Source: Mytilus edulis (lineage: Eukaryota). Taken from it: a DNA stretch of 64,000 bases. Shown one piece after another: positions 3,001 to 12,000 of this stretch. Location of the stretch: the NCBI RefSeq assembly GCF_963676685.1, contig NC_092352.1, positions 56,358,001 to 56,422,000 on the forward strand. Reading direction: 5' to 3'. A program made the position numbers. Numbering within the stretch: position 1 is the stretch's first letter; each line of letters begins with the position of its first letter.

Positions 3001-6000
3001 CTTCCGGATCTTTTCTATGTTAATGTTTAAAAAAAAACATCTAGTACTTGTTCTTTATTGTAGTGGACTAGTCAGAAACAAAAGGAATTCATCTGTGACA
3101 GAGGACTTTTTAAAATATGCGGTTAGATGGATGTCAAATTGTGTTCAATTGATTCTGTTTCTCAGGAAGCATAACTTTAAACTTCCATTTGTTGGACGGA
3201 AATTGTCCGACGATGACCCACAATCAGCATTCAGAAATCTAGCAACAGGTCTTGAAGAGATTGTTGTGTTCTGCTTCCAACAGGCGATCTATGCAATAAC
3301 CAAGGTAAGCATTGTGACAATATAATATTTTGAGCAAAGGGGCGAATATCAAGCAGCCCCATCAGTTGTCGTCACATTGAAATATTTTTCATTAGACATA
3401 CACCATTTTTAAGAGGGATCAAAAATGATTATTTTTTATGAAAAGTAAACTAAGAGACACATTGTAATGCACAACCTATATGAGTTTCTTGTAGATGTGG
3501 TTATTTTGTGATCGGTAAACGTTATAATAGACGGACGTGTCAAACCGTATTTGTAGCAAATCTAAGGCCAACTTAAAAAAATATGACAGTTAAAATAAGA
3601 GTCCATAACTCTTGAATCACAGATCAAACAAAAATCATATTGTCAAAATTGTAAGAGAGCTTACTGATACCAATTCCTAAAACAGCGACAACAGTAAAAT
3701 TGAAGTCCCACCGAATAGAAATATTGTTGTTCATGACGTTTGATCGTTACAAAATATGTCCTACGGATGTTTTTTGTTTGTGAACCAAGTTTTTATAACG
3801 CAAATCTCTGATAACCTTTCCCTTTCACCTATGCTTACTCGTGGATCTTAATTGGAACAGTATTTCTTAATCTAAATCTCTGCTTAATGTTTTATCAGAA
3901 CAAGTGTTTGTATTTAGTATATTCTCTTTTTTTTTTCTTGAAAGATCAATTTTTCGATTTATGATTTATGAGTTACTCCTTTGGTATTTTTCGCCTCTCT
4001 CTTACTTTAGACACCTATTTTCATTTTCATCGGCGGAAATGATGCTACATTGTTGTTACAGGCAGTGCATTGTTTTTTGTATTGGCATAGAAATGACGAT
4101 CAGTTCTTTATGTTTTTTTTAATTCAGACAAAATCCCATAAAGGAAGACATCCATTTCACCACTTGTTTGCCGGAACCTTCATGTGCATCATTAACTACA
4201 TACACCCAAACTCTATCGCCAACAGCCAAATGTACCATTCCAAACGCTGTACCAGAGTCATATTTATTCGTTGCAACGCCTTTTGAATAACCTAGCGCGA
4301 ATTGAACACTATCCGAATTCTTTGTTATCGCGAATTCAATTCTGGCATCGGGATACACTAAAAGTTTTGCAAAAAATGCATACAGTCCTGCTCGAGGACA
4401 AGTAAATATTCCTGTTGGCCCGTGATATGCGTTGTGTGTGTTAATAAGTACTGATTTGAAATGGATCACTTGATTATTTCCAAGGTTTGAAATAGGATCC
4501 ATCATCTCGGCAGAAAATGCTACTGCACCATCATCTAAAATATTACATACATCTATATATTACAAAACGTCAAATAAAAATAAGAATAATTACAAAATGT
4601 ATAATTACTCGGGTTTCATATTCCTGTACCAAGTCAGGAATATGACAGTTGTTATCCATTCGTTTGATGGGTTTGGACTTTTGATTTTGACATTTGATTA
4701 GGGACTTTCCGTTTTGAATTTTCCTCGGAGTTCAGTATTTTTGTGATTTTACTTTTTTCGGAGACTTTCCGATCTCGCACTCTTTCCTGTGCATGTACAT
4801 TTGTAGCTTGTTATCACACGAACATAACATGCGTTTTTCGTATATAGCATCTTATCTTTCGCTCTCACTGCATATGGAATTTACTGACCCCATATATATC
4901 GTATGAGGTCACTAGCACACTATGTAACTAATAATACTAAGTTGTTGGTAAAATGTATTGAATAAAGATACTGAAGCATACAGTATTTCTTGTCAATTGT
5001 TTGTGAAGCAAGGGTTGTATGAAAAAAACTATTTATTGATTTGCACATATTTTGTCAGTTTAAAGAATATTTCCATAATTAAGAATAGTTTTTTTTAATT
5101 TAGTCATGTAAGTAACTGTTTAAAATTTTGATCCCATCATCAGAAAATAGAAAGTGTAATTGAACGTAAAAATAAATGTGTGATTTTCATTAAATGATAT
5201 GCACGAGGGTCTGGATGGGGTTCAAAGAATAGAAAATAAGTGACCAAAAAATAAAGAATATATGAAAAATAGGTCAACAAAAGAATAAGAATAAAGATCA
5301 AAATTTATAAAGAAAGAGGAAAATGACTTAAGGGGGTTCGCGGGTCTAAATCATTTATATAGGATTTCTCTATATTTTTCTATAAATGAACTTTATCTTA
5401 TAGTTAATAGAAAAATAAAATAAAAAAGTGGGGTCACCGTTCATTTGCGCCCACAATCTGCCTTCGAAAGAAGCATATATTTTTGTAAAGGTGTTTTTTT
5501 TCTGTTGAAGTAATAGGAGAAATAAAGTTAATATCGAAATAAAAAAAAGAAATGTATTACAGAAATCGCTAAAATTTTACAATAATTTAGTTTAAGTACA
5601 GCTTATATGGAAATTATATTAAAAAAGATAGGTCACCGATGAGTTGAAAAAGATATTTCAATTTTAGAGCCAAAAATGGCATTTTTCCACCAAAGGGAGA
5701 TAATTTGGAACTTTTTCAATGATGTATACATTTTAAAAGTCATCTGGGGCCAACACGAATTGATTGTTTTGAATGAATTTTGTACCATAAGATAAAGTAA
5801 CAACTACAAAAGGAAATAAATAAAATTTGTAATGAAAAACAAATGTTTGATTTTTTTCTGAAATTTTTATACCCTCGAGCCTCCTTAAATGCAGAATTGA
5901 TGGAAACTTTATTCCAAACATCGCATATAGTATTACCATAAAAATTTGAGACTTTACCATAACGTTATGTGCACTTGTAATTCATTATAAAATTATATAT

Positions 6001-9000: not shown

Positions 9001-12000
9001 ACATTTTTGCCGAAATTAGGTTACCGTATCTCAGTGTTGAACTTAATAAGTTCAACCCAACTGAACAGGGTTGTCTGCCTATAAACTTCAGATATTTCTT
9101 TCCGTTTTTTACCTGATGCTGAACCAGGGTCTATAGACCGGATCTTCCTCCCAGAATAGATTCCATGACCGAGGGATTTCATCCTTTTCTCAAATGGTCC
9201 TTGTTCGGCAACACTGCTTTTATTCATAATATTCTCACTATTTGAAGCGTCCACAAATTCATCCTTTGAATTCCGGTTTCTTTGAAATTGTTCTACGGAG
9301 TTAACTCTTCTTTCTAGTTCTTCATTCTTTGAAATAAGATAATTGACGGTTTCCTTATGAGTCTGTTCCATTTTTTTTATTTTATCTTTAAGGGTGTTCA
9401 TTTCTGAAACCAAGATACGCACACTTTGTTCGAGAGTTAATTCTGCATCTGTTAAAACACTTTCAACAAATGGGTTTGAATTAATCCCACCAACAGCAAC
9501 AATGAGCAAAAATAATTGCAAACGCAACATCCCTGTCCTAATTTGAGTTCCTCGATGCCTTTAAGAAAGATTGCGGAAGGTAATCTTTAAAAAAAAAAGT
9601 GACCCAAAGATAACCTCGATATCCTAAAAGAAAGACATATTTTGTAGACATTACGTAATTTGGCATATTTTAGTAAAGTTAAGATCTGTTAAAACTAGAT
9701 ATTATCTACAAGGTCAGATTATTTAATGTTGTCGTTGTTTTAAAAGTGTGCTTAGCGTCTTGAAGCATTCATTTAATTTAACATAAGACTACCTTGTAGA
9801 GTACACATACATGTATCAACGTTACATATACATACATCTCAAATAGATTAAACGAACTCAATCCTGTCTATAAATTATAAATGATTTAATCTCGGTGATC
9901 TTTCATCAGACAACGAACTTTTCGTTCTGTCGTTGGTTATTTAGTATTGTTCATATGCCAGAACTAATCTTGAAGTCTGGTTGCCATATTACTCTCGCAT
10001 GTATTGCATTTTTTATATGTAAATAGTGGTTCTTTGGTAAAGATTAGTTAGGCAAAAATATCACTTTCATTGAAATAGGAAACTTTCAATTACAAATCTT
10101 TGAGCTTTGACATCAAATTTTATGATTTTAAAGTACTATATATATCTAGTACATTCTACACAAATAAACACTATTGAATGTATGTTGAGATCTATTTTAA
10201 TGTTGGCCTTGTTATTTCTGTGTAAAGTAAGAAAGTTTAAGTTATCAACTGTTTTTTTATTTTTTGTTTTTAGTTTTAAACATATTTATTTACAGTGGAT
10301 TGGAAAACAAGTTAGTCCTTTCCATTTTGCGGGTGCGGCTGCTGCCTTGGCCTGTAGCAGTATCACCCTGCTCTTTTTCGAAATCTACAAACAAGGGTGT
10401 CTTTTACGTGCAACAAATATTTTGCTCTCTCTTAACACGGATCAGCCATTTATCGTCCCCTTCCAACGAACTATCATTGTTTCTCAAGACCATACTCGCA
10501 AATGGTGTCAAGGGAGAGCCGAAAATTTTCTCCCCGGAACTTGGATCGAACCAGGAACATTTGTGTTAGTAATCCGATGCGCTAACCACTATACCATTAT
10601 TATTCTAATTATGGTTTACTAAATATGGTTTGTTTTGGTCGATGCCTTTCTCAATTGTTTTTGGTTGCTTTGCATCTCTCGTTGTAGTTAGTGCATACCT
10701 AGCTTCAGTATATTTTTGAAATCATTTTAAACAAGTGACCGATCATCAAAATTGATGAAACATATCTGAAATATTTAAAATCACTTTTAAATCACCAACA
10801 ATGAGATATTTCATTGTTAAAAGCAAAATCATCTTAAGTTACACTTGATCTAATCATTACTCATTTAAATTGTTATGAAAAATTCCTTGGAGCATAATTT
10901 TTAAATTAAAAATAAATTTTTGAAACCATTAAAAAATCGTTATTTTTCTATAATTTGACGTGAATGATTTTCCACTTATAGTGTATGTTCAATTCAAAAC
11001 CAATCCAACCTATATTTAATGATAATAAATTGAAATTATACTAAATTGTTATAGTAAATCGTTTCATCGAACTCAACTTCATACACTGACGTTATTGATT
11101 CTTTGTTATTGTATTGAATTATGCTTTAGTAGTGGATACGGACAATATATTTTATCGTAAGATCTTTACAGAATCATTTCAAATAGTGCAAAACATTATT
11201 TTAAATTACGCTCCCTTTGAATTCAATCACATTTAATTTTAAGTATATCTACACTTACTATGTTGAAAAATAATTGATTTCGTATTGTGTCCATCAGAAT
11301 AAAAATAATTATAAAAGTAATTATATAAGTAATTGTATAATTTACTTGGGGGTTCCTTAATATCTAATTGAAATCTATTTAATTAGAAACCTAGCTGAAA
11401 TACTCAGTTGAATATAAATACATGTATACCACTTCTTCAATCAGGGACAGTCTGTACTCAGTACAGTTAGTATAAACTGTACCTGCTTCAATAAAGCATT
11501 TTTTCTTTGATTGTGATATCCCAGATGAAGGTTTTTGAAATTCTCAGTACATGTACTTAGAAAGTGAAGTGTATTAAATGCATTAACTGATTTATTTTTT
11601 GGTTAAAGTCCTCGTCCTGAAATTATGTTATATCAGCCACTGGACTATAAAAACAAGCAATTTGTTCTAGTTCGACGCATGTGCATAACAAAAAATGATA
11701 CTAAACTCTTCAATGTGCGTAGGCCTACTTCAAAACTAAAAAAGACACACAGAGCATTCGTTTTTAAAATATCAAAAATATAATTTCCCATAGATTTTTT
11801 TATGATTGCTATACTTGCTTTGTTCTAAACGTGCATTTTTTATATGTTTTATTTGTAATCATGCAGTATCAATGGAAAGCTTAATAAAGCTACACATTCT
11901 GAGTACTAATATTTGTCTATATATATAAACCTTTTGAATTTTGATCTTTTGATGCACAATCTAAAATCTAATACAGTAACTTCAGTTGTGTAGTTATGTC

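What the first reader, a model, noticed from the sequence alone, without database searches (positions are those of the whole stretch)
4119..9530. Orphan but intact C1q exon: candidate alternative terminal exon giving two recognition heads on one stalk
Seen: the duplicated unit includes the 3' flank (~3530-4560 vs ~6780-8500) and an upstream block (6280-6390 vs 9850-9950). However, no signal-peptide/coiled-coil exon is recognisable between 4535 and 6280, where repeats and a TTAA MITE lie. The orphan exon keeps a good acceptor in the same phase 1 as the donor at 9113/9112. It also keeps a fully open frame despite ~30 aa differences and indel-rich flanks. Inference: exon 1 (9530-9113) may splice to either 8480 or 4534, diversifying the gC1q head by alternative last-exon choice.
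Basis: partly seen in the sequence, partly recalled or inferred. Interest (0 to 1): 0.7.

Follow-up and report, generated by a model that had tools for sequence, protein, structure and literature searches.

The report
Orphan C1q exon beside mussel lectin gene
A mussel immune-lectin gene is followed by a second, still readable copy of its recognition-head exon that has lost its own first exon; it is most likely a truncated gene duplicate, and whether the neighbouring gene re-uses it as a second head is still untested.

Summary
On the minus strand a two-coding-exon C1q gene lies at 9530-9113 (signal peptide plus coiled coil) and 8480-8068 (head A). A second intact C1q exon, head B, lies at 4534-4119. 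Both match Pfam C1q. They share 103 of 134 residues, and B has the same phase-1 acceptor. Head, 3' flank and a 90-nt TATA-bearing upstream block are duplicated in tandem order. The 5'UTR, exon 1 and all but 36 nt of the intron are replaced in copy B by 1.7 kb of unrelated, transposon-bearing DNA. No second exon 1 exists anywhere in the 64 kb.

B has no frameshift or stop. Neutral decay since the duplication would allow this about 1% of the time. A Mytilus edulis gene model carries a 91%-identical head, also without a private exon 1, chained behind another head.

My reading is a whole-gene tandem duplicate that later lost its 5' half (about 0.45). Head A has an equally good acceptor and a canonical AATAAA upstream of B, which counts against it.

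No RNA data or other mussel genomes were available. Exons were searched one by one and never joined.

The parts
9846..9934 (-). Upstream block of copy A. It is promoter-like and holds TTTATAA at 9881-9875. The homology ends about 30 nt downstream of that motif.
   Evidence: It matches 6273-6358 at 79% over 90 columns, E 4e-14. Alignment. The promoter role is inferred, not tested.
9113..9530 (-). Coding exon 1 of the complete gene: 139 codons plus 1 nt. It has a signal-peptide-like N-terminus, then a heptad-rich stalk, and ends in the phase-1 donor cag|gtaaaa.
   Evidence: Sequence. It is the only copy in the window. Relatives P0005 (92% identity), P0006 (72%) and P0007 (67%) appear. The signal peptide and coiled coil were judged by eye. 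Pfam gave only sub-threshold coiled-coil hits.
8481..9112 (-). Intron of the complete gene, 632 nt. Only its last 36 nt (8516-8481) have a counterpart in copy B.
8068..8480 (-). Head A. It is the C1q terminal exon, with stop at 8070-8068, AATAAA at 8069-8064 and a GU-rich stretch just downstream.
   Evidence: Pfam C1q E 2.1e-17. Identical to P0003 at 122 of 127 residues. Sequence.
6816..8067 (-). 3' flank of copy A. It is homologous to B's flank in three blocks, interrupted by A-specific insertions at 6931-7509 and 7737-7850.
6273..6358 (-). Upstream block of copy B, with TTTATAA at 6304-6298. It marks the start of the second tandem unit.
4571..6272 (-). 1.7 kb with no homology to copy A's 5'UTR, exon 1 or intron. 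It contains a 145-nt interspersed repeat (about 4617-4765) and a truncated MITE arm (4858-4935).
6161..6206 (-). Weak candidate private first exon: an ATG, 15 hydrophobic-rich codons and a phase-1 GT. It is a lead only.
   Evidence: Of 31 ATG..GT phase-1 candidates from 73 ATGs, only 2 passed the loose filters. In one search, 6% of 500 Markov resamples reached 2.
4535..4570 (-). Retained intron stub of copy B: 29 of 36 nt identical to A, ending in ttttag. An extra AG at 4554-4553 is also in phase 1.
4119..4534 (-). Head B, the orphan C1q exon. It is open from the acceptor to the stop at 4121-4119. ATTAAA lies at 4123-4118.
   Evidence: Pfam C1q E 9.7e-19. PDB relatives include adiponectin and C1q. 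Identical to head 2 of P0001 at 125 of 137 residues.
3584..4118 (-). 3' flank of copy B.

Best explanation
Head B is what remains of a whole-gene tandem duplicate of a bivalve 'signal peptide + coiled coil + C1q' lectin gene. The duplication copied promoter block, exon 1, intron, head and 3' flank head-to-tail. This part is shown.

Later, in copy B, everything between the promoter block and the last 36 nt of the intron was replaced by unrelated, transposon-bearing DNA. That removed the start codon, signal peptide and stalk. The replacement is shown; how it happened is inferred.

The head stayed under coding constraint for much of its history. In this haplotype it cannot make a secreted protein on its own. 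I take it to be a recently disabled copy, or a structural-variant allele, in a gene family known for rapid birth, death and presence-absence variation. On this reading it is silent, or spliced to the upstream exon 1 only sporadically. This last step is inferred.
For: - Tandem order. Block A, exon 1, intron, head A and flank A are followed 457 nt later by block B, 1.7 kb of unrelated DNA, the intron stub, head B and flank B.
- There is no exon-1 relic anywhere in the 64 kb, using 5 related exon-1 queries.
- Transposon pieces, one of them truncated, lie in the replaced segment.
- Divergence matches in age. Non-coding parts differ at 91 of 584 ungapped columns. The exon differs at 50 of 402 nt, with dS about 0.19-0.22.
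- dN/dS is about 0.5-0.6 and differences by codon position are 18, 10 and 22. Constraint is therefore weak.
- Against its M. edulis counterpart, B carries all the unique changes when close paralogues serve as outgroup: 10 to 0, 8 to 0 and 10 to 1. These include D19N and P88T, at sites the same in all 6 other heads.
- B has lost the GU-rich element that follows A's poly(A) signal.
- Background from papers. Bivalve C1q genes of this type have two exons and expand by tandem duplication (PMC6835236, passages seen). C1qDC genes are enriched among mussel presence-absence genes (PMC7653742, passages seen).
Against: - B has no stop and no frameshift. At the indel rate of the homologous non-coding blocks, 3.8 indels are expected on B's lineage in 402 nt, giving P(0) = 0.023, or 0.048 for frameshifting indels only. 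P(no stop after 25 substitutions) is 0.28. Together this is about 1%. B was therefore not neutral for the whole time since the duplication.
- B's Pfam score is not lower than A's.
- The M. edulis B-type head is also intact. In the one spliced model found, it also lacks a private exon 1. If that is true in the genome, the loss is old and the head has been kept regardless.
- The rate asymmetry disappears with more distant outgroups: 8 to 3 and 3 to 5, not significant. Gene conversion of the M. edulis copy could therefore explain it.
Confidence: 0.45

Rival explanations
1. Transcripts starting at exon 1 read through head A's poly(A) site. They then splice 9113->4534 instead of 9113->8480. The result is a second secreted protein with the same signal peptide and stalk but head B. 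Mixed trimers could also form.
For: - The acceptor is in the same phase as the donor, the frame is open, and B has its own stop and ATTAAA.
- ORF retention is unlikely under neutrality, about 1%.
- No private exon 1 was found.
- The M. edulis model CAG2205485.1 places a 91%-identical head in the transcription unit of an upstream C1q gene, with no private exon 1. It uses the same acceptor position and phase.
Against: - The matching phase and acceptor are simply inherited from the duplication.
- Head A comes first on the transcript, with an equally good acceptor and AATAAA plus a GU-rich element. It should therefore win co-transcriptionally (inference).
- The duplicated promoter block shows that B began as a separate gene.
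- The M. edulis model joins head to head, not exon 1 to head 2. It is an automatic model that also buries a signal peptide internally.
- No paper linking C1qDC genes to alternative terminal exons turned up. In one search, 7 of 7 papers listed; I opened passages of one and it does not describe this. In one search, none of the 12 listed out of 379 held the term 'C1q domain'. In one search, 6 of 6 listed and no title concerns it.
Confidence: 0.27
2. Head B is a separate gene that uses its retained promoter block and a new, non-homologous short first exon encoding only a leader. That would convert it to the 'signal peptide directly followed by C1q' type.
For: - A promoter-like block with TTTATAA is retained 1.7 kb upstream.
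- A candidate lies 67 nt downstream of that block: ATG at 6206, 15 codons with 9 of 10 hydrophobic residues, and a phase-1 GT.
- Short-leader C1q genes are the second commonest type in oyster, 111 of 476 (PMC6835236, passage seen).
Against: - The candidate has no small-residue cleavage region. Basic residues follow the hydrophobic run (judged by eye).
- Its donor scores below the real one, 1.15 against 2.5, on a weight table recalled from memory.
- Such candidates are not significantly enriched: 2 observed against a mean of 0.27, with 6% of 500 resamples reaching 2.
- T-rich DNA encodes hydrophobic runs by chance.
Confidence: 0.13
3. Serial heads. A donor just before head A's stop (a|gt at 8079/8078) splices to B's acceptor. 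This would give one protein with two C1q domains, as in the M. edulis model, and would be a step towards the known multi-C1q architecture.
For: - P0001 (CAG2205485.1) joins head 1 to head 2 at exactly this position and phase.
- Multi-C1q proteins exist in bivalves, 21 of 476 genes in oyster (PMC6835236, passage seen).
Against: - In the window this donor reads ttta|gtctga and scores -7.9, against 2.5 for the real donor, on a recalled weight table.
- Head A keeps its own stop and AATAAA.
- The model looks like a merger of neighbouring genes.
Confidence: 0.05
4. Assembly artefact. The two heads are alleles or collapsed or mis-joined haplotigs, not neighbours on one chromosome.
For: Mussel genomes are highly heterozygous and hemizygous (PMC7653742, passages seen).
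Against: - The window has no gaps.
- The copies differ by 12-16% with many indels, which is far above allelic levels, and they lie in regular tandem order.
- The two head types form separate clades, each with a partner from another source, supported 98/97 and 93/94.
Confidence: 0.03

Closest known systems
Tandemly duplicated bivalve sC1q-like type II genes (Gerdol et al. 2019, PMC6835236; passages seen)
   Same: Signal peptide, coiled coil and C1q. Two coding exons with conserved splice sites. Tandem copies on one strand a few kb apart. Introns and flanks rich in indels while exons stay in frame.
   Different: Here the second copy lacks its first coding exon and most of its intron. The passages I read do not describe such orphan head exons. 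That paper's supplements were not seen.
Presence-absence (dispensable, hemizygous) C1qDC genes of Mytilus galloprovincialis (Gerdol et al. 2020, PMC7653742; passages seen)
   Same: A young, lineage-specific immune lectin copy shaped by structural variation.
   Different: Whether this particular copy, or the loss of its exon 1, varies between haplotypes could not be checked. The relevant Data Notes are supplements, which were closed.
Mytilus edulis model CAG2205485.1 / A0A8S3R879 (P0001, 533 aa)
   Same: It contains a stalk exon identical at 83 of 100 residues to exon 1, and a terminal head identical at 125 of 137 residues to B. That head has the same acceptor phase and the same last 17 residues, and no private exon 1.
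   Different: It holds two stalk exons and two heads in series, and it has no A-type head. It is an automatic model. MEDL1 was annotated with BRAKER 2.1.5 and RNA-seq (PMC9063065, passages seen). That this accession belongs to MEDL1 is my recollection and comes from no call.
Multi-C1q (smultiC1q) proteins of oysters (PMC6835236; passage seen)
   Same: Several C1q heads encoded one after another at one locus.
   Different: In the window head A ends in a stop and a poly(A) signal, and no usable donor precedes them.
Drosophila lola and mod(mdg4): a common 5' part joined to one of many alternative 3' exons encoding different binding domains (recalled, no call)
   Different: Those loci are proven by transcripts and hold many alternatives. 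Here there are two heads and no transcript evidence.

Membership tests
C1q domain (Pfam PF00386) | Profile match above the curated cut-off across the whole domain | tested here: met
   B scores 68.3 bits and A scores 63.9 bits against a cut-off of 23.7. The matches cover profile positions 1-126 and 1-125 of 127. PDB relatives include adiponectin, C1q chains, cerebellins and CTRP5: 32 distinct sequences at E <= 0.001.
C1q domain (Pfam PF00386) | Jelly-roll fold | tested here: inconclusive
   An AlphaFold2 run on a 6-row alignment gave mean pLDDT 54.5 and pTM 0.54. That is too poor to use.
Bivalve sC1q-like type II gene (signal peptide + coiled coil + C1q) | An N-terminal signal peptide and coiled-coil region encoded upstream of the head | tested here: not met
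   This applies to copy B. No homologous or convincing private first exon was found between 8067 and 4535 or elsewhere in the window. Copy A has it at 9530-9113. Its signal peptide and coiled coil were judged by eye, and Pfam gave only sub-threshold coiled-coil hits.
Alternative-last-exon gene | One upstream donor and two downstream terminal exons, each with an acceptor in the same phase, an open frame, a stop and a poly(A) signal | tested here: met
   Read from the sequence. The donor is at 9113/9112 in phase 1. The acceptors are at 8481/8480 and 4535/4534. The stops are at 8070-8068 and 4121-4119. The poly(A) signals are AATAAA and ATTAAA.
Alternative-last-exon gene | Transcripts that join the common exon to each terminal exon | not testable with these tools
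   No RNA-seq, EST or cDNA collection was available. Apart from P0001, the protein hits were unspliced ORF calls.
Multi-C1q (smultiC1q) gene | The upstream head continues into the next head through a splice donor instead of ending in a stop | tested here: not met
   Head A has a stop and AATAAA. The only in-phase GT before the stop scores -7.9 against 2.5 for the real donor, on a recalled weight table.
Processed (retroposed) pseudogene | No intron remnants, a poly(A) tail, and a dispersed position | tested here: not met
   B keeps 36 nt of intron with the acceptor, and 3' flank homology over more than 500 nt. It lies in tandem with its parent.
Decayed (unitary) pseudogene exon | Stops or frameshifts in the former coding frame | tested here: not met
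   There are no stops and no frameshifts in 137 codons. The only length difference from A is one codon next to the acceptor.

The most novel reading that the evidence does not exclude
In mussels a C1q lectin gene that lost its own first exon is kept alive by borrowing the neighbour's. The upstream signal-peptide and stalk exon splices either to its own head or, past that head's poly(A) site, to the orphan head. One promoter and one trimerising stalk then display two recognition heads and their mixed trimers. The Mytilus edulis model with the same orphan-type head suggests the arrangement is older than the split between these two genomes. It could also be the route by which multi-head C1q genes arise.
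Probability: 0.25. Interest if true: 0.6.

Novelty: new member of a known kind. Interest (0 to 1): 0.35.

Why it matters
Bivalves have no antibodies and rely on hundreds of C1q lectins. That repertoire is known to grow by tandem duplication and by presence-absence variation. If orphan head exons are reused by neighbouring genes, splicing would add a further layer of diversity, including mixed trimers. It would also supply a plausible intermediate on the way to multi-head C1q proteins.

If B is only a truncated duplicate, the locus is an ordinary snapshot of gene birth and death. It is then mainly useful as a warning for annotation, because automatic models tend to chain such exons onto neighbouring genes.

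Tried and rejected
- Second exon 1. I searched with tblastn at E up to 100, with blastn at word size 7, and with relatives from other sources. Nothing was found.
- Private first exon. The scan examined 73 ATGs and 31 phase-1 ATG..GT candidates. Only two weak ones emerged, not significant against resampled sequence.
- Spliced relatives in protein databases. Searches with B among longer proteins and exon 1 among longer proteins each gave 1 hit, and it was the same model. B among proteins of similar length gave 3 hits among 7 candidates. Exon 1 against representatives gave 7 hits, 3 of them real. All hits except P0001 are ORF calls. They either start inside a head or run through the donor into the intron, so they say nothing about splicing.
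- Relative-rate test of B against its M. edulis counterpart. The result depends on the outgroup, so I do not rely on it.
- dN/dS. A value of 0.5-0.6 over both lineages does not separate the models.
- Structure prediction of B, intended to map the differences. Confidence was too low, and no fold search was run on it.
- Inverted and tandem repeat scans of 4500-6400 found no complete MITE and no TTAA duplication.
- A bacterial-type promoter and terminator scan is meaningless for this eukaryotic locus and was ignored.
- Literature searches for alternative terminal exons in C1qDC genes found nothing relevant. The MgC1q search was seen only as a listing.
- No complex prediction was run. C1q heads would pass by resemblance to solved trimers, and the result would not bear on splicing.
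- Not checked:
  - the contigs behind P0002-P0007;
  - paper supplements.

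
Full report
**What is there**

The window has no N and is 32% G+C. Its closest named protein is from Mytilus edulis. I take it for mussel DNA, not human.

On the minus strand the sequence shows a gene with two coding exons:
- Exon 1 runs from the ATG at 9530 to 9113. That is 139 codons plus one base, ending in the donor cag|gtaaaa. It begins with a hydrophobic leader and continues with a heptad-rich stretch. Both features were judged by eye; Pfam gives only sub-threshold coiled-coil hits.
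- After a 632-nt intron, the acceptor ttttag precedes head A at 8480-8068. Its stop lies inside an AATAAA and a GU-rich stretch follows.
- A second head, B, lies at 4534-4119. It follows its own ttttag in the same phase 1, and its stop lies inside an ATTAAA.

Both heads are full-length C1q domains by Pfam: B 68.3 bits, A 63.9 bits, cut-off 23.7. B matches 32 distinct solved C1q-family sequences at E <= 0.001, including adiponectin, C1q chains and cerebellins.

**The duplication**

A and B share 103 of 134 residues without a gap and 352 of 402 nucleotides.

Homology continues into the 3' flank in three blocks: 3914-4570 with 7851-8516, 3708-3919 with 7510-7736, and 3584-3699 with 6816-6930. It reappears in a 90-column block upstream, 6273-6358 with 9846-9934, at 79% identity and E 4e-14. 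That block holds a conserved TTTATAA. The homology stops about 30 nt after it, as a core promoter would (the promoter role is inferred).

The order is block A, exon 1, intron, head A, flank A. Then, 457 nt later, come block B, 1.7 kb of other DNA, 36 nt of intron, head B and flank B. This is the footprint of a head-to-tail duplication of the whole gene, not of the terminal exon alone.

This gene type is already known to have two exons and to expand by tandem duplication in bivalves (PMC6835236, passages seen).

**What copy B lacks**

Only the last 36 nt of the intron have a counterpart in B (29 of 36 identical).
- tblastn with exon 1 at E up to 100 finds only itself below E 0.1 in the 64 kb. 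blastn with word size 7 finds nothing colinear.
- Four more distant exon-1 relatives also hit only 9551-9081. They are the two copies in P0001, plus P0006 and P0007.
- The replaced segment, 4571-6272, holds a 145-nt interspersed repeat with 5 other copies in the window.
- It also holds one arm and the centre of a palindromic MITE. Complete copies of that MITE lie near 48.14-48.33 kb and 61.93-62.09 kb.
- I could not confirm a TTAA target duplication.

A scan for any private first exon covered 73 ATGs and 31 ATG..GT candidates in phase 1. It left two weak ones. The better-placed one is 6206-6161, which lies 67 nt after block B. It lacks a cleavage region and is followed by basic residues. Two such candidates are not significantly more than resampled sequence gives: mean 0.27, with 6% of 500 resamples reaching 2. 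The donor weights in that scan were recalled from memory.

**Is B still constrained?**
- The homologous non-coding blocks differ at 91 of 584 ungapped columns and have 11 gap openings. These are counted within local alignments, which is conservative.
- The exon differs at 50 of 402 positions and has no indel. One codon differs in length right at the acceptor.
- At the non-coding indel rate, B's lineage alone should have collected 3.8 indels. That gives P(0) = 0.023, or 0.048 for frameshifting indels only.
- Twenty-five random substitutions leave the frame free of stops 28% of the time. Neutral drift since the duplication is therefore unlikely, at about 1%. Drift over a recent part of that time is not excluded.
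- dN/dS between the heads is 0.52-0.63, and differences by codon position are 18, 10 and 22. This is weak constraint summed over both lineages.

**Relatives elsewhere**

I searched exon by exon and did not join exon 1 to either head for any search or fold.

Searching B and exon 1 among longer proteins each returned one hit, and it was the same one: P0001, 533 aa. This is Mytilus edulis CAG2205485.1 / A0A8S3R879. It reads, in order:
- a partial stalk exon, identical to exon 1 at 83 of 100 residues;
- seven residues that match the translated 5'UTR just before the window's ATG;
- a second complete stalk exon, identical at 100 of 153;
- head 1, which stops three residues short of a normal C-terminus;
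- head 2, identical to B at 125 of 137, with the same acceptor phase and the same last 17 residues.

So in a second genome a B-type head is open, is annotated as coding, and has no private exon 1 in the model.

The model looks like a merger of neighbouring genes, because it buries a signal peptide internally. The M. edulis MEDL1 annotation used BRAKER 2.1.5 with RNA-seq (PMC9063065, passages seen). That this accession comes from MEDL1 is my recollection, not a tool result.

All other hits are unspliced ORF calls on short contigs. They begin inside a head or run on into the intron, and so carry no splicing information. These are P0002-P0004 and P0005-P0007.

A tree of seven heads pairs A with P0003 (122 of 127 identical; support 98/97) and pairs B with head 2 (support 93/94). 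The duplication therefore predates the split between these sources.

B carries all the unique changes relative to head 2 when A, P0003 or P0002 is the outgroup: 10:0, 8:0 and 10:1. It does not when head 1 or P0004 is the outgroup: 8:3 and 3:5. Acceleration in B and gene conversion in M. edulis both fit. Two B-only changes, D19N and P88T, hit sites that are the same in all 6 other heads.

**Weighing the models**

The anatomy is secure: a whole-gene tandem duplicate whose 5' half was replaced. The current state of B is not.

For a disabled relic or structural-variant allele (0.45):
- the promoter block shows B was once independent;
- the replaced segment holds rearranged transposon pieces;
- constraint is weak;
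- B has lost the GU-rich element after its poly(A) signal;
- an extra in-phase AG lies 18 nt upstream of B's acceptor;
- the family is known for turnover and presence-absence variation (PMC7653742, passages seen).

- phase, frame, stop and poly(A) signal are all compatible;
- the frame has been retained;
- the M. edulis head likewise lacks a private exon 1.

- head A comes first on the transcript, with an equally good acceptor and a canonical poly(A) site;
- the compatible phase is simply inherited from the duplication.

The remaining models are a private short leader exon (0.13), a serial two-head protein as in P0001 (0.05) and an assembly artefact (0.03). In the window the donor needed for the serial model reads ttta|gtctga and scores -7.9, against 2.5 for the real donor.

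**Novelty**

In the held library I found no paper describing alternative terminal exons in C1qDC genes:
- One search listed 7 of 7 papers. I opened passages of one.
- One search listed 12 of 379. None of the 12 held the term 'C1q domain'.
- One search listed 6 of 6. No title concerns it.

The most likely reading is an ordinary product of gene birth and death in a known family. The less likely reading would be a new way of diversifying bivalve lectins.

**Left open**

No transcript data, no other mussel genome or haplotype, no contigs behind the unnamed ORF calls and no paper supplements were available. The structure prediction of B was too poor to use (mean pLDDT 54.5).

Noticed in passing
window 23755-24147 (-): An open frame of 130 aa matches the C-terminal two thirds of a C-type lectin domain (Pfam Lectin_C, E 5.9e-10). 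The window therefore carries a second kind of immune lectin gene.
   Followed up: partly
window 48140-48330 and about 61936-62086; fragment at 4858-4935: A palindromic MITE family with long inverted arms. Two complete copies exist, and one truncated copy (one arm plus centre) lies upstream of head B.
   Followed up: partly
window about 4617-4765, 16768-16909, 12005-12142, 22845-22965, 19376-19513, 32755-32840: An interspersed repeat of about 145 nt, present in six copies that are 78-83% alike. One copy sits 50 nt beyond the point where A/B intron homology ends.
   Followed up: partly
window 6931-7509 and 7737-7850: Two insertions lie in copy A's 3' flank and are absent from copy B. The first contains a self-complementary stretch at 7168-7284. 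The second matches repeats at 54883-54953, 45865-45967, 45704-45759 and 21459-21531.
   Followed up: no
window 9551-9531 (-): The M. edulis model reads through the 21 nt before the ATG after an AG at 9554-9553. This suggests a real acceptor there, and hence a non-coding exon 0 and a 5'UTR intron in this gene family. This is inference only.
   Followed up: no
window 4554-4553 (-): An extra AG lies 18 nt upstream of head B's acceptor. It is also in phase 1 and the frame stays open, so using it would add six residues. Copy A has no AG there.
   Followed up: no
window 2823-3023 (+) and 51391-51765 (-): Two open frames share a motif-rich stretch (IENGNGEC.KE.TIQP...). This points to another repeated, possibly ORF-bearing element. 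The 51391-51765 frame has no Pfam match; the 2823-3023 frame was not scanned.
   Followed up: no
window 17326-17961 (+): The longest open frame outside the C1q locus is 211 aa, rich in Ser and Pro, with no Pfam match.
   Followed up: no
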